From a virus (Duplodnaviria > Heunggongvirae > Uroviricota > Caudoviricetes), in the IMG/VR virus record IMGVR_UViG_2703718817_000003: a stretch of 64,000 nucleotides of DNA. One strand, 5' to 3'. A model generated the notes under the pieces. The model was not told where the DNA came from. It saw nothing but the letters and a program-made list of their open reading frames with translations, and did not search any database. The position numbers and the translations under genes are program-made. Shown here one piece after another: positions 16,004-20,871 of the stretch. Position 1 is the stretch's first letter. Each line of letters starts with the position of its first letter.

Positions 16004-16204
16004 CTTTTCGAATCCATTCGATCGGTAAATAACACCCAGCTCACTATCGAGCTGGTCCATGCCTTAAGATTAATGAAAGTCACTTGTTGACAGTCAATAA
16101 ATTCCAGGGCGGCGAAAAAACTCTGTCTATACGGATAGTGCTTGCATTTTGCTCTTTCTGCGTGTAGCGTATATACACAGGTTACACGCACGAATGGAAT
16201 TATT

Positions 16205-16486
16205 TTGATTAAGTCATTTCGCCATAAAGGGCTTGAACGCTTTTTCAAGACAGGTTCAACCGCAGGCATTCAGGCCAAACATGCGGTTAAGCTACGCATT
16301 CAATTGACTGCGCTTAATACAGCTAAACGCCCGGACGATATGTCTGCGCCTGGATGGGAATTGCACCCTCTAAAGGGGGCGGACCTTAAAGGTCACTGGG
16401 CAATATCGGTAAACGGTAACTGGCGACTTACCTTCCGATTTGAAGGAGAAGACGCAATTCTAGTTGACTATCAGGATTATCATTGA
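16205..16486 (+). CDS. higB: HigB toxin (RelE/ParE superfamily, plasmid maintenance killer type)
   Basis: [18 protein letters not shown]...[31 protein letters not shown] signature; TTG start at 16205 (ORF-track frame starts 16142). Confidence 0.75.
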
Positions 16487-16494
16487 GGAACACT

Positions 16495-16776
16495 ATGAGT
16501 CGTATGCATAATCCCGCGCATCCAGGCGCGGTTCTTCGTGAATATTTGGGAGACATGTCAGTCACAGACGCCGCTGCTGCATTAGGCATTACTCGCACGG
16601 CGCTTTCCCGAATTCTGAACGAAAAAGCAGGTATTTCTGCTGATATGGCACTTCGTCTGGAGTCCGCTCTTGGAACCAGTGCCGAAATGTGGACCGGTAT
16701 GCAATCCCAGTATGAGCTTTGGGTTGCTTCGCAAACCACTCGCCCAAACATCCGTCCATTATTTTTCCACGCATAA
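16495..16776 (+). CDS. higA: HigA antitoxin (XRE-type HTH)
   Basis: [18 protein letters not shown]... with HTH; directly downstream of higB; GAGGAA SD. Confidence 0.75.
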
Positions 16777-16868: not shown

Positions 16869-17198
16869 ATGAGTTACAGCAGGCTCGACGATCGATGCAT
16901 TGAAGACGATGTGCTGCGCGCACTATTCCATCAGGAGATGATCAAGCGGGTATCGGAGTATCACTCCGATAATTTCCAGTACACGATAAAAATTGATGAG
17001 GTTTATCGCTCAGACCTGGCGGCCTATCGCGCCTATGGCAACGCTGATTTGCGCTGGGTATTTCGCGTGCTGGTGGGCCATGAGTCAGAAATGGAAGAAA
17101 TGCCGGTCGGGACAACGTTAACTCTTCCTGACGCAGCATGGCTAAGAAACAAGATTCGCGATTACGCTGGCTCGGCACCGGAGATAGAAAATGCCTGA
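16869..17198 (+). CDS. hypothetical protein, first gene of unknown two-gene operon
   Basis: 109 aa; stop overlaps next start (ATGCCTGA). Confidence 0.45.
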   Translation: MSYSRLDDRCIEDDVLRALFHQEMIKRVSEYHSDNFQYTIKIDEVYRSDLAAYRAYGNADLRWVFRVLVGHESEMEEMPVGTTLTLPDAAWLRNKIRDYAGSAPEIENA

Positions 17199-18396
17199 CT
17201 TCCTGAAAAATCAGGACGGGCGATATATCACTGACGGCCTGTCCTCTAAGGATTTCACACGCGTATTTGAACTCATCAGGAAAGAGCAAAACCGCAAACG
17301 CCGCCAGGCGCACAGGACACTCACGCCGGGCAGGCTTAGGAATAAATCAGCCGAAGACATTCTTAAGCTGGGGAAAAAGAAAGGCGGCACGTTCTTTACG
17401 CGTGACGATCTGAAAGGCTTCGAAAAGCTGCGAAGCAAAGCTCGCGAAAAATACGACAGCAAGACGGCTGGCATTACATACGCACAACTGGTAGCGTCCA
17501 GCCAGGCTATCGATATTAAGCGAGCAAATAACGCCGTAGACGACGGTTCTGGTATCAAAAGAGCTACGCCCGTATCTCTTCGTCACAATGTGATTAATAT
17601 CCGCGTGGAAGCGTCCGATATATCCGTTCACCAGCACCACATTGTCCGGGTACGTTTTGAAGAATGGGATCAGATGGTCGATGACATCGCAGAAGACGAT
17701 AAATCAGCCCTGAAAGTCACAAAATCACTGTGTGCCGGGCGAGTGTCTTTCGATTGTGACTGCGGTCGCCATCAATACTGGTATCGCTACATCGCCACTG
17801 CGGGTAACTTTGCCCTGGCCCCGCCAAAAGAATACGCCTATCCAAAAGTTCGCAACCCTAAGCTGCAAGGCGTCGCCTGTAAACATGTGATCCACTCAAT
17901 GACACGACTACAGTCTGCCAGTTGGCAGATGAGTATTGCTCGCGCCCTGCAAAAAGCTGCAACGCAAGTTGCCTTTGGTGACGATCGCCGCCGCACGACA
18001 AAACACTTCACAAAAGAAGACGAGAAGGCGTTCAATCGAAACCGTAGCAGCAAAACGAATGTTGAGGCAGCTAAACGTGAATGGAAGCTCTATCAGAAAC
18101 GCCAGGCCGCTTTAAGCTCAAAACTGGCAAAGGACAACGGTAAGATCGACAAGCTGCGCGACCAACTGACCAGGGCCAGAAAGTTATCCGACGCACAGAA
18201 AAAACGGGCAGCGGCAAAAGAAGCTGCTTTGCAACGGGAGAAGCAGAAAAACAAGGAACTTCAGCAACGCCTTGCTGATCAGTTCGCACTGAAGAAGCAG
18301 GCGTTCATTGATGCGCTTGTTATGGCAGGAACACCACCAGCACAAGCCGAAAAGATGTTCATGGCGTATGTGAAGAACAACGTAAAAAATGTATAA
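17191..18396 (+). CDS. hypothetical protein with Cys/His cluster and Lys-rich coiled-coil C-terminus
   Basis: 401 aa; FDCDCGRH...CKHVIH motif; C-terminal ~120 aa strongly basic/coiled-coil. Confidence 0.5.
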   Translation: MPDFLKNQDGRYITDGLSSKDFTRVFELIRKEQNRKRRQAHRTLTPGRLRNKSAEDILKLGKKKGGTFFTRDDLKGFEKLRSKAREKYDSKTAGITYAQLVASSQAIDIKRANNAVDDGSGIKRATPVSLRHNVINIRVEASDISVHQHHIVRVRFEEWDQMVDDIAEDDKSALKVTKSLCAGRVSFDCDCGRHQYWYRYIATAGNFALAPPKEYAYPKVRNPKLQGVACKHVIHSMTRLQSASWQMSIARALQKAATQVAFGDDRRRTTKHFTKEDEKAFNRNRSSKTNVEAAKREWKLYQKRQAALSSKLAKDNGKIDKLRDQLTRARKLSDAQKKRAAAKEAALQREKQKNKELQQRLADQFALKKQAFIDALVMAGTPPAQAEKMFMAYVKNNVKNV

Positions 18397-18596
18397 GTGT
18401 TTGCAAGGACATGAATAGTACACTATTATGATGGTGAAGGAATGGTACATGTTGAACCAAACCTTCGAGGATGCAGCAGACTGAAGAAATTCAGACATCC
18501 CGCAACCAGCTATCATAACAGGTCAAACCAGTTGTGATACTTGGTCAAGGCAAAGTCCGGTAATGGCGTTCTGAATACCAGAAAATAATTTCTGGC

Positions 18597-18630
18597 GAAG
18601 CCCACCTTAAGGTGGGCTTTGTTATTTTGG
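18597..18630 (+). terminator. Rho-independent terminator between convergent genes
   Basis: AAGCCCACC-TTAA-GGTGGGCTT hairpin then TTTGTTATTTT. Confidence 0.7.
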
Positions 18631-19161
18631 TGGCTTAGGAAGCGGTTTGTTCCTTAACAGATTGTATGCGATTGCGAAAAACTTCACTGACCTGCCATTT
18701 GGTTTTTCTGATACCGGGTAGGCGCTAGTGATGTGTAACCGCAACTTTTTCTTTTCCCTGAAAGCCTTAAACGCAACAAAATAATACTCCTTGTTACCCT
18801 CCCCAATATTTACCTCAATAACGGCATAGCTTCCGTATCCGGCATGGATCACCTTACCTTCCGACAATGACAGAATTGCCTCTTTTAAGTGAAGTTTGGC
18901 AAGATTATAGCGACGCTCACAAAATGGACGAGACTCTTTAGGGGCGTGGTACATTAACGCCAGTTTCTCTTCCTCAGTCTGGTGTGCATAGTCTTTTGTG
19001 AAGCAGTGAAAAGAGTACGTAACCCAAAAGCGATACTCTATCGGTTGCTTTCCTTCTTGTTGCTGAACAAACACAGCCTGATGAGCATCAAGAAATGACA
19101 AATCACGAATAACACCATCAGGGTGTTCAAATGCTCGCCACTTTTCAACTTCCTGACTCAC
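18622..19161 (-). CDS. hypothetical protein, single-gene opposite-strand insertion (moron-like)
   Basis: 179 aa on minus strand between plus-strand operons, own upstream region and shared terminator. Confidence 0.5.
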   Translation of the reverse strand: MSQEVEKWRAFEHPDGVIRDLSFLDAHQAVFVQQQEGKQPIEYRFWVTYSFHCFTKDYAHQTEEEKLALMYHAPKESRPFCERRYNLAKLHLKEAILSLSEGKVIHAGYGSYAVIEVNIGEGNKEYYFVAFKAFREKKKLRLHITSAYPVSEKPNGRSVKFFAIAYNLLRNKPLPKPPK

Positions 19162-19312
19162 TGTCTCTCCTTAAATTTCAACCGAGCAATGATACCGCAC
19201 CTCTGATAGTTTTCGCCTCCCCAATCTACATAAATCTCCTGTCAGCAAACAAATCACAATCTCCCGAAAATCTTCCTTTCGATACCTGATAAATCGACCT
19301 TTGAGGACGCTT

Positions 19313-20107
19313 ATGGGCCGTTTTGATGAATGGCTTGCTGATGATGCAAGCCTGATGAGAAAGGGAACAGAACATGACAGCACGCAGAGAGAAGAGACAA
19401 CGACGGTTGAAGCGAATGAAGGAAGCACAACGGAAAATGGGAAGGTCAGTACAGGGCCATTCAGTATTCTGGAAGAACGCGCTGCCACCGAAGCAGATAG
19501 CCGCCATGATAATTGGTCTGATAATGCTGGTGACTCTGTTACGGAAGTGATTGAACCTGACATCGCTCCCCTACCGGCATCGCTCGCTAACAGAGAACCA
19601 AACCAGCAGCTTAAAACCCGATATAACGGACACAAAGCGTTCAACGACCAGATCCGCGCCGATTGGATGCTCATTATTGAATCAAGCCCTGACGCATTCG
19701 AGGCGCTTTTATATCGCCCGGCTGATGGCACCTATGGCGTCGTAAACGATGAAACAGGTGAAGAGTCATTCACGCAACTGGACAACAACCAGCGTGAGCT
19801 TACCTATCTGGAACCGGAAATCGTATACGTCCTGGACAACCCGGACGGAAGGGATTCGTTTCATGCCATTGATGCCGATGGAGAACAGGATGGTCTTGCT
19901 GATGAAGTGCTAATCCTGCGTATTGCTGCAAACAACGTACCTGTTGGTTCAATCCTGGAATGGAACGAAGAAATGGCGAATGGCCTCGCCCGCCGCTGGT
20001 GGTACGTGCACCGAATCTTCAGCTACGGAACACAACACGTCGGCTCCCTTTATTACTGCATCCCGGCCAGGAACTTTGATACCACTCAAAACGGAGTGAT
20101 CGAATGA
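19313..20107 (+). CDS. hypothetical acidic protein
   Basis: ATG 19313 with GAGGA SD (ORF-track frame 19301..20107); acidic N-terminal half. Confidence 0.45.
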   Translation: MGRFDEWLADDASLMRKGTEHDSTQREETTTVEANEGSTTENGKVSTGPFSILEERAATEADSRHDNWSDNAGDSVTEVIEPDIAPLPASLANREPNQQLKTRYNGHKAFNDQIRADWMLIIESSPDAFEALLYRPADGTYGVVNDETGEESFTQLDNNQRELTYLEPEIVYVLDNPDGRDSFHAIDADGEQDGLADEVLILRIAANNVPVGSILEWNEEMANGLARRWWYVHRIFSYGTQHVGSLYYCIPARNFDTTQNGVIE

Positions 20108-20871
20108 CATCCAACAAAACTCTCCTGTCCCGCATTGGCGAGTGGCAGACAACGCGTACTGGAAAATTCCAGACAACTGGTCTGGAAAGAGTGGATAACG
20201 CTTTTGCTACGCTAATCAGCGACATTTTTTCTGACGTAACGCTGGTGGAACCAGCAAAAGAAGAAAGGCGCTTTGCATCATTCCTGAGTCGCCCACCAGC
20301 GGAGCGTGTTTATGTTGCCCGTTTTGATAACGCGGTCGAGTTCCTTAAATCGGTTCGCCGTGCTAATGCCGGGCAAGGGAGAAAGCCAGAGAATCCGAAC
20401 ATTAATCGCGATGCGCTCCCTCTGATTAATATCTCGCGCTCAATGGATATCAGCTATATCAACAATGACCAGCAGATAGACCGCAAAAGCTGTGATCACT
20501 TCTGCGAACCTGGCAGCGGTATGCCTTTAGTAGCCCTGGAATACACCCAGGCAAATCTGACGTATGACGTTACGTTAATGGCGACGGATAAGGCGACCAT
20601 GAGTCTGATGTGTAATTCGCTAGGAGCACGTCTTCGCTTGATGGCAGGAACGCAGTTTGAAGCAACAACCCCGCTGGTACGAGTACCCGTCCCGCTAATT
20701 TGCGCGATTCAGGATGCTAAAGACATCAGTTTTACTGATGTTTCAGCCCCAATTGGGGAAGAGCGTATTTATGCTGCACAAACGGCAATTAGTGTTATAG
20801 CAGACGTGATCACCGCCTGGGAGCTGGACGCGAAACGAATTATTACTGAAACCTCTCTGAGAATGGGGTAA
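20104..20871 (+). CDS. hypothetical protein (possible virion/baseplate-associated)
   Basis: 255 aa; ATGA overlap with upstream gene; no specific motif. Confidence 0.4.
   Translation: MTSNKTLLSRIGEWQTTRTGKFQTTGLERVDNAFATLISDIFSDVTLVEPAKEERRFASFLSRPPAERVYVARFDNAVEFLKSVRRANAGQGRKPENPNINRDALPLINISRSMDISYINNDQQIDRKSCDHFCEPGSGMPLVALEYTQANLTYDVTLMATDKATMSLMCNSLGARLRLMAGTQFEATTPLVRVPVPLICAIQDAKDISFTDVSAPIGEERIYAAQTAISVIADVITAWELDAKRIITETSLRMG

What the first reader, a model, noticed from the sequence alone, without database searches (positions are those of the whole stretch)
18597..19300. Single opposite-strand gene (179 aa) flanked by a terminator: moron-like insertion
The gene 18622..19161 is on the minus strand between two plus-strand operons, ends at a strong hairpin terminator shared with the converging upstream operon, and has its own upstream region. 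This is the typical footprint of independently acquired cargo; its sequence has no motif I can assign.
Basis: inference. Interest (0 to 1): 0.5.

Follow-up and report, generated by a model that had tools for sequence, protein, structure and literature searches.

The report
YjaZ protein plus SroH RNA cargo cassette
The lone reverse-strand gene is a plasmid-borne copy of the uncharacterised E. coli gene yjaZ (htrC); the "terminator" beside it belongs to a second gene, the small RNA SroH, and the two always travel together from enterobacteria to cyanobacteria, which suggests an unrecognised RNA–protein module, possibly toxin–antitoxin-like.

Summary
The ORF 18622..19161(-) is real. It lies between the homologs of P1 tail genes 25 and 7 in a D6-like phage-plasmid. 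It is not motif-less: it is a full-length YjaZ/HtrC-family protein (NCBIfam NF007263, 332.9 bits; Pfam PF27200 on its homologs).

The "shared terminator" ends a second cargo gene, the sRNA sroH (Rfam RF00372, 113 bits, + strand ~18436..18628), which has its own sigma-70-like promoter. The ~850-bp cassette is accessory. Five PLSDB plasmids carry it, whereas 111 share the flanking tail genes, and most of those hold a RelE/HigA cluster in the same slot.

In every evaluable yjaZ locus I fetched (85: Enterobacterales, Aeromonas, Pasteurellaceae, about 50 cyanobacteria, Deinococcales and others), an SroH-like RNA sits beside yjaZ, convergent in 84. There is no other conserved neighbour. The RNA has a covariation-supported multi-helix fold with a pseudoknot, which Rfam does not annotate.

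- **Shown:** identity, cargo status and the RNA–protein linkage.
- **Inferred (~0.35):** a toxin/RNA-antitoxin-like addiction or defence module.

The papers I could search do not link sroH and yjaZ.

The parts
18622..19161 (-). yjaZ (htrC) homolog, 179 aa, GTG start. Protein component of the cassette.
   Evidence: ORF. NCBIfam NF007263 'stationary phase growth adaptation protein YjaZ', equivalog, 332.9 bits (cutoff 324), residues 1-179 of 179. Its 146 homologs all carry precomputed PF27200:YjaZ. AF2 model pLDDT 88.5.
19165..19172 (-). Shine-Dalgarno-like AAGGAGAG, 5 nt (from AAGGAG) upstream of the GTG start of yjaZ.
   Evidence: Read directly from the sequence.
18436..18628 (+). sroH sRNA gene, convergent with yjaZ. 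The 5' end is inferred from the promoter. Its 3' U-rich tail overlaps the yjaZ stop codon (18622-18624).
   Evidence: Rfam RF00372 at 18435..18620, 113 bits (GA 80), E 5.6e-27. Own covariance model R1 at 18465..18628, 140 bits. MFE -69.6 kcal/mol, z = -6.2 against shuffles.
18401..18429 (+). Sigma-70-like promoter of sroH (-35 TTGCAA, 17-nt spacer, -10 TATTAT).
   Evidence: Promoter scan. A near-consensus TTGACA-17-TATAAT/TATATT lies in the equivalent position upstream of the RNA in most of the 80+ homologous loci. Not experimentally verified here.
18469..18500 (+). SroH P1/P2 hairpin. P1 is 18469-73 with 18496-500; P2 is 18481-86 with 18489-94. The conserved internal loop is GCAGCAGA.
   Evidence: Helix mapping. 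Compensatory changes occur in 3 of 5 P1 pairs and 5 of 6 P2 pairs across 74 distinct sequences.
18477..18573 (+). Pseudoknot CAGA (18477-80) with UCUG (18570-73), and long-range helix P6 (18501-04 with 18564-68). P6 encloses variable P3 (18505-07 with 18543-45, carrying a lineage-specific hairpin insert) and P3b (18546-50 with 18557-59).
   Evidence: all 4 P6 pairs covary (for example UA:56/CG:17/GC:1). The pseudoknot is 99.7% paired, with independent A-U to G-C and C-G switches at one pair. These helices were not in the model used to build the alignment.
18578..18595 (+). SroH P4 hairpin (CCAGAA/UUCUGG).
   Evidence: Five of 6 pairs show compensatory changes. Mapping.
18596..18628 (+). SroH P5 intrinsic terminator (stem 18596-606 with 18611-21) plus the conserved tail UUUGUUAUUUU.
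   Evidence: Terminator scan. Seven of 11 pairs covary. The G·U at the stem base (GU in 72 of 74 sequences) would be an A·C mismatch on the other strand, which fixes the RNA's strand.
18397..19250 (.). Approximate limits of the exchangeable cargo cassette between the gene-25 homolog stop (18396) and the shared DNA upstream of the gene-7 homolog.
   Evidence: 79 of 84 matching PLSDB plasmids share only 19251..19300 of the 18400-19300 query. The D6 alignment breaks into 2 pieces around the slot. E. coli chromosomal yjaZ-sroH DNA aligns to 18463..19174 at ~80%.
19162..19300 (-). yjaZ upstream region. No consensus sigma-70 promoter was detected.
   Evidence: The promoter scan found no minus-strand site in 17500-20500. 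Sequence.

Best explanation
**Shown.** The window is a D6-like (P1-related) phage-plasmid of Escherichia. Between its homologs of tail genes 25 and 7 it carries an ~850-bp accessory cassette made of two convergent genes:
- yjaZ (htrC family, 179 aa, minus strand);
- the ~190-nt structured sRNA sroH (plus strand), with its own strong-looking promoter and a terminator that abuts the yjaZ stop codon.

This pair is a self-contained, horizontally mobile RNA–protein module. The RNA accompanies yjaZ in every evaluable locus examined across several phyla, with no other conserved neighbour.

**Inferred (my best guess, about 0.35).** It works like a toxin–antitoxin or addiction/defence module with an RNA antitoxin.
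- YjaZ would be the effector, perhaps a RelE/BECR-like RNase.
- The abundant, constitutively transcribed SroH would keep it in check. It could do so by binding the protein through its conserved fold. It could also pair with yjaZ transcripts, which lack a good terminator and should read antisense through sroH.
- On the phage-plasmid the cassette would then stabilise the plasmid prophage or exclude competitors. That is the role played by the RelE/HigA cassette occupying the same slot in most relatives.

**Confidence by layer.** Identity and cargo status ~0.95. Obligate RNA–protein partnership ~0.85. TA-like mechanism ~0.35.
For: **Identity**
- NF007263 equivalog, 332.9 bits, full length.
- ~80% DNA identity to chromosomal E. 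coli yjaZ plus its 3' flank, found in 3738 chromosomal places. Chromosomal context is rpoC-yjaZ-thiH.
- sroH scores 113 bits against a gathering score of 80.

**Cargo status**
- D6 and NZ_CP085065 hold orf73/HTH/HigA/RelE in the slot.
- 5 plasmids carry the cassette against 111 with the flanking genes.
- A Raoultella phage-plasmid has yjaZ-sroH plus umuDC-like genes there.

**Linkage of RNA and protein**
- Rfam or my own model finds the RNA next to yjaZ in 86 of 88 sources. The two exceptions are D6, which has no yjaZ, and a contig cut off after the gene.
- 84 of 85 loci are convergent. In 69 of the 84 convergent loci the end of the RNA model overlaps the stop codon by 1-7 nt.
- In one Thiomargarita MAG the RNA lies upstream on the same strand, so the link survives loss of antisense geometry.
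- No conserved neighbouring protein: the largest cluster spans 7 of 84 loci, and the commonest Pfam family occurs in 3 of 140 neighbours.

**RNA structure**
- 98.1% of cells are paired. 26 of 42 pairs have compensatory changes, and 0 of 500 shuffles reach the observed value on any measure.
- Near-consensus promoters lie upstream of the RNA in most loci.

**TA-like hints**
- The top Foldseek PDB hit is HigB2 (E 0.03, prob 0.85).
- Residues invariant across the 48 aligned close relatives: S22, Y49, H52, C53, Y71, R141, H143 and S146. Y148 is nearly invariant.
- Distribution is patchy and mobile: phage-plasmids, a Pantoea ICE, the edge of an Aeromonas prophage, IMG/VR contigs, and ColE1 plasmid cargo (PMC5864857). 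One Pseudanabaena MAG has two copies (L037 and L057).
- yjaZ decays while the RNA stays: truncated in O157:H7 and frameshifted in Shigella. Intact yjaZ without the RNA was never seen.
- SroH has processed forms in vivo (PMC5389530).
Against: **No toxicity or neutralisation data exist.**
- E. coli sroH deletion mutants are viable, with only envelope-stress sensitivity reported (cited in PMC5389530 and PMC13572404). That is not what a potent toxin with an essential antitoxin predicts.

**The structural similarity is below usual significance.**
- It weakens when only residues 70-179 are modelled (pLDDT 76, mixed hits).
- Sequence and profile searches give no RelE/ParE, PADLOC or PHROG match.
- R141 and H143 are replaced in distant family members.

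**The module fits no defined TA type.**
- The protein is too large and soluble for type I.
- The RNA is non-repetitive and on the opposite strand, unlike type III.

**Other points**
- No specific pairing between SroH and the yjaZ translation-initiation region was detectable.
- A yjaZ promoter was not found.
- Strong cross-phylum conservation of an elaborate RNA fold fits a catalytic or scaffold RNP at least as well as an antitoxin.
Confidence: 0.4

Rival explanations
1. A non-toxic ribonucleoprotein. SroH is a structured RNA cofactor, scaffold or substrate, and YjaZ is its dedicated binding or processing protein. Together they provide a physiological function such as stress or stationary-phase adaptation or RNA metabolism, and the phage-plasmid carries them as a host-benefit moron.
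For: - The RNA fold is elaborate and highly conserved, with invariant unpaired segments (GCAGCAGAC, CCGGUAA.G.CGUUCUGAAUACC, GGCGAA) from E. coli to cyanobacteria. That is more typical of RNP or ribozyme-like RNAs than of antisense antitoxins.
- Co-occurrence is strict, and the link persists without antisense geometry in L087.
- Delta-sroH is viable with an envelope-stress phenotype (PMC5389530, PMC13572404).
- NCBI's name, 'stationary phase growth adaptation protein'.
Against: - The distribution is patchy and mobile, with multiple copies in some genomes and no fixed genomic neighbourhood.
- The cassette sits in a slot that otherwise holds a TA cluster.
- It has been lost from many E. coli lineages (PMC3318445; 3751 of 5426 genomes match). 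All of this looks selfish or accessory rather than housekeeping.
- The htrC functional designation was retracted (PMC11551758).
Confidence: 0.3
2. SroH is only a cis-antisense and terminator element that tunes yjaZ expression through convergent transcription and 3' overlap. YjaZ acts alone, and the RNA has no protein-binding or trans function.
For: - 84 of 85 loci are convergent with overlapping or abutting 3' ends.
- yjaZ lacks a U-tract after the hairpin on its own strand, so its transcripts should run antisense through sroH.
Against: - Antisense complementarity is automatic and does not need sequence conservation. Yet long single-stranded stretches are invariant across phyla, and a pseudoknotted fold is maintained by covariation.
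- The Thiomargarita locus keeps the RNA although it is no longer antisense.
- Orphan sroH copies above Rfam's gathering score persist in P2-like prophage ends without any yjaZ.
Confidence: 0.15
3. A passive hitchhiker. A fragment of a bacterial chromosome (yjaZ with its 3' flank) was picked up by illegitimate recombination and has no selected role on the phage-plasmid.
For: - The cassette is essentially co-extensive with the chromosomal yjaZ-sroH segment (18463..19174 aligns to E. coli chromosomes).
- It is rare among relatives.
Against: - The ORF is intact, and the RNA scores 140 bits with all helices preserved.
- Plasmid copies diverge from one another (99%, 97%, 86% DNA; 93/85/74% protein) while remaining intact in E. 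coli, E. marmotae, E. fergusonii and Raoultella elements. That implies long-term maintenance.
- The plasmid copy is only ~77-78% identical in protein to the E. coli chromosomal copy, so this is not a recent capture from the host.
Confidence: 0.05

Closest known systems
E. coli K-12 yjaZ (htrC) and the adjacent sRNA gene sroH (between rpoC and thiH)
   Same: Same protein family at equivalog level and the same Rfam RNA family. The arrangement is also the same: a convergent RNA ending at the yjaZ stop. Both parts are catalogued but functionally uncharacterised (PMC11551758, PMC5389530).
   Different: This copy is plasmid/phage-borne. It is ~77-78% identical in protein and ~80% in DNA to the chromosomal copy. 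Its RNA has a ~21-nt longer P3 hairpin insert. The papers I could search treat sroH as an enterobacterial sRNA and do not link it to yjaZ. Rfam's consensus marks only the terminator hairpin.
Type III toxin-antitoxin systems (ToxIN, CptIN, TenpIN)
   Same: A protein effector genetically coupled to a dedicated non-coding RNA with its own terminator. They are mobile, found on plasmids and phages, and have no protein antitoxin. In one locus (L087) the order is even RNA-terminator-protein on one strand. Orphan RNA copies on prophages recall phage-borne pseudo-ToxI (from my own knowledge).
   Different: The RNA is a single ~130-190-nt pseudoknotted molecule, not tandem 34-36-nt repeats. It is normally on the opposite strand with its own promoter. 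The protein shows no detectable ToxN/Kid-like fold or sequence similarity. No toxicity has been shown.
Type I toxin-antitoxin systems with convergent 3'-overlapping antisense RNAs (e.g. B. subtilis txpA/RatA, bsrG/SR4)
   Same: Convergent gene pair with overlapping 3' ends. The RNA has a strong constitutive-looking promoter and the protein gene a weak or undetected one.
   Different: Type I toxins are small hydrophobic peptides, whereas YjaZ is a 179-aa soluble, well-folded protein. The RNA's sequence and tertiary-looking fold are conserved across phyla, which antisense function alone does not require.
RelE/ParE-superfamily (BECR-fold) RNase toxins, e.g. V. cholerae HigB2
   Different: Scores are below significance and there is no sequence or profile match. 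YjaZ is about twice the size, with an extra N-terminal half. It has no adjacent protein antitoxin.
Phage morons (lambda-type autonomous cargo units)
   Same: An insert between late-operon genes, on the opposite strand, bounded by a terminator, and absent from close relatives.
   Different: It is a two-gene RNA-protein unit. The clear promoter and terminator belong to the RNA gene, not to the ORF.

Membership tests
YjaZ/HtrC protein family (NCBIfam NF007263; Pfam PF27200) | Full-length match to the family HMM above the curated cut-off | tested here: met
   332.9 bits against a cut-off of 324, residues 1-179 on profile positions 1-179. All 146 homologs carry precomputed PF27200, named YjaZ. My local Pfam copy lacks this model.
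YjaZ/HtrC protein family (NCBIfam NF007263; Pfam PF27200) | Family-wide conserved motifs (DLS.L, (Y/F)S.HCF, RPF, RY.L, SAY) | tested here: met
   All are present in the window protein. There are 19 invariant columns across 48 sequences. The HCF, RY.LS and SA(Y/F) motifs persist in distant members.
sroH sRNA (Rfam RF00372) | Covariance-model score at or above Rfam's gathering score | tested here: met
   113 bits against 80, model positions 1-161, E 5.6e-27.
sroH sRNA (Rfam RF00372) | Independent transcript with its own promoter and intrinsic terminator, on the strand opposite yjaZ | tested here: met
   At sequence level only. Promoter-like site at 18401-18429 and terminator at 18596-18628. G·U pairs fix the strand. 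Promoters are conserved in homologous loci. In E. coli it is a primary transcript (PMC5389530). Expression from this plasmid cannot be tested here.
Phage moron / accessory cargo | Absent from closely related elements, with a different insert at the same site | tested here: met
   D6 and NZ_CP085065 carry orf73/HTH/HigA/RelE there. 5 plasmids carry the cassette against 111 with the flanking genes.
Phage moron / accessory cargo | Autonomous promoter and terminator for the cargo ORF | tested here: inconclusive
   No consensus promoter was found upstream of yjaZ. The hairpin lacks a U-tract on the yjaZ strand. The RNA gene does have both.
Type II RelE/ParE toxin | RelE/ParE fold | tested here: inconclusive
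Type II RelE/ParE toxin | Adjacent co-transcribed protein antitoxin gene | tested here: not met
   No conserved neighbouring ORF in 84 loci, and none in the window cassette.
Type II RelE/ParE toxin | Sequence or profile membership | tested here: not met
   No Pfam, PADLOC, PHROG or PDB-sequence match to any toxin family.
Type I toxin-antitoxin | Small hydrophobic peptide toxin | tested here: not met
   The protein is 179 aa with a confident globular alpha/beta model.
Type I toxin-antitoxin | cis-encoded antisense RNA overlapping the toxin mRNA | tested here: inconclusive
   The genes are convergent with 3' overlap, but transcript ends are unknown. No pairing with the translation-initiation region beyond shuffled controls.
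Type III toxin-antitoxin (ToxIN-like) | Antitoxin RNA made of tandem repeats upstream of the toxin gene on the same strand | tested here: not met
   No tandem repeats in 18300-19400. The RNA is on the opposite strand in 84 of 85 loci.
Type III toxin-antitoxin (ToxIN-like) | Toxin is an endoribonuclease that binds or processes its cognate RNA | not testable with these tools
   Needs biochemistry. The only hints are processed SroH forms in vivo (PMC5389530) and the weak RNase-toxin fold similarity.
Known anti-phage defence systems (PADLOC-DB 2.0) | HMM match to a catalogued defence protein | tested here: not met
   0 families at E ≤ 1.

The most novel reading that the evidence does not exclude
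YjaZ and SroH form a previously unrecognised, horizontally mobile RNA–protein system spread across bacterial phyla. It would be either a new kind of toxin/RNA-antitoxin (addiction or anti-phage) module or a new small RNP. SroH would be a pseudoknotted, protein-partnered RNA rather than an enterobacterial base-pairing sRNA. That would assign a function class to two long-standing E. coli orphans (htrC/yjaZ and sroH). Orphan sroH copies on P2-like prophages might then act as decoys or anti-modules.
Probability: 0.5. Interest if true: 0.8.

Novelty: new member of a known kind. Interest (0 to 1): 0.6.

Why it matters
For the window itself the result is modest. A variable cargo slot in a D6-like phage-plasmid holds a copy of two catalogued but uncharacterised E. 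coli genes.

The wider point is more interesting. yjaZ (a "y-ome" gene whose heat-shock assignment was retracted) and sroH (an sRNA without a known mechanism since 2003) behave as one obligately linked, mobile unit from enterobacteria to cyanobacteria and Deinococcales. The RNA fold is conserved by covariation.

This turns two open "unknown function" entries into one directly testable hypothesis: toxicity and rescue, RNA binding and processing, plasmid stabilisation, and phage exclusion. It also suggests that Rfam's sroH family is far broader and more structured than annotated. If the module is TA-like, it would add a new architecture of RNA-antitoxin system carried by phage-plasmids.

Tried and rejected
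**Searches that found nothing**
- Pfam (local copy), PHROGs and PADLOC on the protein: no hits.
- Profile search of PDB sequences: only chance-level hits to SH2B and TRIM5.
- The afdb50 fold library was unavailable.
- Tandem repeats in the cassette (ToxI-like antitoxin): none.

**Tests that gave no support**
- Search for a conserved third component. Clustering of 415 neighbouring ORFs and a Pfam tally of 140 nearest neighbours found none.
- Trans pairing of SroH with the yjaZ translation-initiation region (RNA.duplexfold against shuffles in 20 loci): no signal, and the method is crude (one search timed out).

**Structure revision**
- RNAalifold's first consensus paired GGAUGC with GCGUUCU as a long-range helix. 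I rejected it in favour of a local P1 (GGAUG/CAUCC), a long-range P6 (CGUU/A.ACG) and a CAGA/UCUG pseudoknot. These show true double compensatory changes and raise pairing from 94.4% to 98.1%.

**Other**
- My SroH model does not detect the RNAs next to distant YjaZ subfamilies. By eye, L097 and L100 have a convergent promoter-RNA-terminator unit, and L103 does not clearly.
- A first literature search on 'sroH' alone returned only oral-health papers.
- The 110-aa ORF at 18184..18516(-) overlaps the gene-25 homolog and the sroH promoter/5' region. I treated it as spurious.
Full report
**1. The observation**

The ORF 18622..19161 on the minus strand is real. It is 179 aa with a GTG start, and AAGGAG lies 5 nt upstream.

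It lies between plus-strand genes that match phage tail and baseplate families:
- 16869..17198 (phrog_1269) and 17191..18396 (phrog_1722);
- 19301..20107 (phrog_1906) and 20104..20871 (phrog_1767).

The region is 83.6% identical to Escherichia phage D6, a P1-related phage-plasmid. In the D6 record these genes are annotated as similar to P1 genes 26, 25, 7 and 24. A 93.9-kb E. coli plasmid (NZ_CP159120.1) is 99.9% identical over the cassette.

The hairpin exists: 14 pairs, 7 of them GC, followed by a T-run on the + strand.

**2. The hairpin belongs to a second gene**

An Rfam scan places the sRNA family sroH (RF00372) at 18435..18620 on the + strand. It scores 113 bits against a gathering score of 80, with E 5.6e-27.

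- A sigma-70-like promoter (TTGCAA, 17 nt, TATTAT) sits at 18401..18429, just upstream.
- The hairpin is this RNA's terminator.
- The RNA's conserved tail UUUGUUAUUUU overlaps the yjaZ stop codon.
- On the yjaZ strand the stem is followed by UUCGCC, so it is a poor terminator for the ORF.

The cassette (about 18397..19250) is thus two convergent genes.

**3. The protein has a family**

NCBIfam gives an equivalog-level, end-to-end match to "stationary phase growth adaptation protein YjaZ". The score is 332.9 bits against a cut-off of 324.

- All 146 database homologs carry Pfam PF27200 (YjaZ), a model newer than my local Pfam copy.
- The cassette DNA from 18463..19174 aligns at ~80% to E. coli chromosomes, in 3738 chromosomal places in 5426 genomes. 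There the gene is annotated yjaZ or "heat-shock protein C" and lies between rpoC and thiH.
- The original htrC functional assignment has been retracted and the gene counts as uncharacterised (PMC11551758).

**4. It is accessory cargo in a hot spot**

- D6 itself and NZ_CP085065 carry a different minus-strand cluster in the same slot: orf73, an HTH protein, HigA and a RelE/ParE toxin. NZ_CP085065 is 98.4% identical to the window in the adjacent tail genes.
- In PLSDB, 111 plasmids share the gene-7/24 flank and 112 carry at least part of the D6-type cargo. Only 5 carry yjaZ-sroH: two E. marmotae, two E. coli and one E. fergusonii.
- A Raoultella phage-plasmid has yjaZ-sroH plus umuDC-like genes in the slot.

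**5. yjaZ and the RNA are linked everywhere I looked**

Rfam found sroH-like RNA immediately downstream of yjaZ and convergent with it in all six diverse loci first tested. These were the E. coli chromosome, a Pantoea ICE, the edge of an Aeromonas prophage, the Raoultella phage-plasmid, Actinobacillus and the cyanobacterium Waterburya.

I then fetched 80 yjaZ loci, one per species. About 50 were Cyanobacteria. The rest included Enterobacterales, Aeromonas, Vibrio, Psychrobacter, Glaciecola, Pasteurellaceae, Deinococcales and a Planctomycetota MAG. I built a covariance model from six RNAs.

- The model hit 86 of 88 sources at 67-145 bits. The two misses were D6, which has no yjaZ, and a contig that ends just after the gene.
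- In 84 of 85 loci the RNA is convergent.
- In 69 of those 84, the 3' end of the RNA model overlaps the stop codon by 1-7 nt. The gap is at most 30 nt in all but one.
- In a Thiomargarita MAG the RNA lies upstream on the same strand. The association therefore does not depend on antisense overlap.
- Nothing else is conserved nearby. The largest cluster among 415 neighbouring ORFs spans 7 loci, and the commonest Pfam family among 140 nearest neighbours occurs 3 times.

**6. The RNA is a structured molecule**

Across 74 distinct sequences, my revised structure pairs 98.1% of cells. Compensatory double changes occur in 26 of 42 pairs, and 0 of 500 shuffles reach the observed value on any measure. 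Slid controls pair only 34-51%.

The structure has these elements, in window coordinates:
- a P1/P2 hairpin (18469-18500) with an invariant GCAGCAGA internal loop;
- a CAGA/UCUG pseudoknot (18477-80 with 18570-73), in which one pair shows independent A-U to G-C and C-G switches;
- a long-range helix P6 (18501-04 with 18564-68), in which all four pairs covary;
- a variable P3, a small P3b, and P4;
- the terminator P5.

P1, P6 and the pseudoknot were not part of the model that produced the alignment, so their support is independent of the fit. Near-invariant G·U pairs fix the strand as the one opposite yjaZ (GU in 72 of 74 sequences at the terminator base). Near-consensus TTGACA-17-TATAAT promoters precede the RNA in most loci. 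The window's RNA folds at z = -6.2. Rfam's own consensus marks only the terminator hairpin.

**7. The protein structure gives only a weak lead**

The AlphaFold2 model is confident (pLDDT 88.5, pTM 0.85).

- Foldseek's best PDB hit is again HigB2, at E 0.03 and probability 0.85.
- Modelling residues 70-179 alone gave a poorer model and mixed hits.
- A profile search over 1.84 billion representatives found 793 relatives at E ≤ 0.001. The 150 best listed are mostly ~170-190 aa. The seven distant members I inspected conserve the HCF, RY.LS and SA(Y/F) motifs but not R141 or H143.

I treat the RNase-toxin resemblance as a lead, not a result.

**8. Mechanism**

*Shown:* a self-contained, mobile yjaZ-sroH cassette sits in a cargo slot that sister plasmids fill with a type II TA cluster.

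*Inferred as most likely (~0.35):* a toxin/RNA-antitoxin-like addiction or defence module. Abundant SroH would restrain YjaZ by binding it and/or by pairing with read-through yjaZ mRNA. Indirect support:
- mobility and patchiness (phage-plasmids, an ICE, prophage edges, IMG/VR contigs, ColE1 cargo per PMC5864857);
- two copies in one Pseudanabaena MAG;
- decay of yjaZ with the RNA retained, in O157:H7 and Shigella;
- intact yjaZ never seen without the RNA;
- processed SroH species in vivo (PMC5389530);
- orphan sroH copies above Rfam's threshold in P2-like prophage ends lacking yjaZ.

*Against:*
- sroH deletion mutants are viable, with an envelope-stress phenotype (PMC5389530, PMC13572404).
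- There are no toxicity data.
- The fold similarity is sub-threshold.
- The module fits no defined TA type.

*Main rival (~0.3):* a non-toxic RNP in which the elaborate RNA is the cofactor or substrate of YjaZ. A purely cis-antisense role (~0.15) is disfavoured by the cross-phylum sequence and fold conservation, the Thiomargarita arrangement and the orphan RNAs. A passive hitchhiker (~0.05) is disfavoured by intact, diverged copies in several plasmid lineages.

**9. Comparison with what is known, and novelty**

The window's cassette is a member of two catalogued families, YjaZ and sroH. Strictly, it is a new member of a known kind.

Three things appear not to be known:
- the obligate partnership;
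- its spread far beyond enterobacteria;
- the RNA's fold.

In the searchable library no paper mentions sroH together with yjaZ or htrC. Papers up to August 2026 still describe SroH only by the envelope-stress phenotype (PMC13572404). I cannot exclude a description in literature that is not held.

**10. Verdict**

"Single gene", "shared terminator" and "no motif" are corrected. Interest is 0.6. The instance itself is ordinary cargo, but it exposes a testable, apparently undescribed RNA–protein module involving two long-standing E. coli unknowns.

Noticed in passing
window 16142..16776 (+): A HigB-like toxin (PF05015, 74 bits) and an HTH antitoxin pair sit between the mat and gene-26 homologs. 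This plasmid therefore already has a type II TA in a neighbouring slot. The E. fergusonii relative has the same layout.
   Followed up: partly
L092 6537..6698 (-) and L096 2927..3074 (-) (IMG/VR contigs): sroH homologs above Rfam's gathering score (104 and 106 bits) lie in contigs carrying P2-like prophage genes (my reading of the ORFs: Ogr-like zinc finger, portal-like). They sit next to C4 antisense RNA and isrK matches, and tblastn detects no yjaZ. These are orphan RNA copies, conceivably decoys or remnants.
   Followed up: partly
L087 3731..4525 (Thiomargarita MAG): This is the only locus where the RNA is upstream of yjaZ on the same strand (RNA, terminator, then gene). The RNA's 5' part has diverged.
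   Followed up: partly
L097 1845..2060 and L100 3031..3200 (distant YjaZ subfamilies): Distant YjaZ relatives (80-105 bits to the profile) are not hit by my SroH model. By eye, L097 and L100 still have a convergent ~120-150-nt unit with a consensus promoter and a terminator abutting the stop codon. The L100 RNA retains UGCAGCGG and CCAGUAAUGG..UCUCUAC-like motifs. This suggests cognate RNAs that co-diverge with the protein. L103 shows no clear unit.
   Followed up: partly
E. coli O157:H7 chromosomes (H60, H61) and Shigella flexneri L070: In O157:H7 the match covers only sroH and the 3' end of yjaZ, annotated 'protein HtrC'. In S. flexneri, yjaZ is frameshifted while the RNA scores 134.7 bits. 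The protein gene decays while the RNA is retained. PMC3318445 lists sroH as lost in several E. coli lineages.
   Followed up: partly
L003 6001..10139 (Raoultella phage-plasmid): The same gene-25/gene-7 slot holds yjaZ-sroH plus a Peptidase_S24/IMS (umuDC-like) pair, an HTH protein and a 305-aa ORF. The slot accumulates several cargo units.
   Followed up: no
L004 2420..5769 (Pantoea ICE): yjaZ-sroH sits beside an AAA_15/AAA_21 ATPase, an unannotated 352-aa ORF and DUF2913, next to TraG/TraU conjugation genes. This looks like a cargo or defence-island context.
   Followed up: no
window 18184..18516 (-): A 110-aa ORF overlaps the 3' end of the gene-25 homolog and the promoter and 5' part of sroH. 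It is probably spurious.
   Followed up: no
window 18510..18542 (+): The window's SroH has a longer P3 hairpin insert than the E. coli chromosomal RNA (CUAUCAUAAC...GUUGUGAUA, about 21 nt extra). P3 is the variable-length element of the family.
   Followed up: partly
P0219 (1019 aa): A long repetitive protein matched the YjaZ profile in 17 short stretches and gave scattered sub-domain Pfam hits. This is most likely a low-complexity artefact.
   Followed up: no
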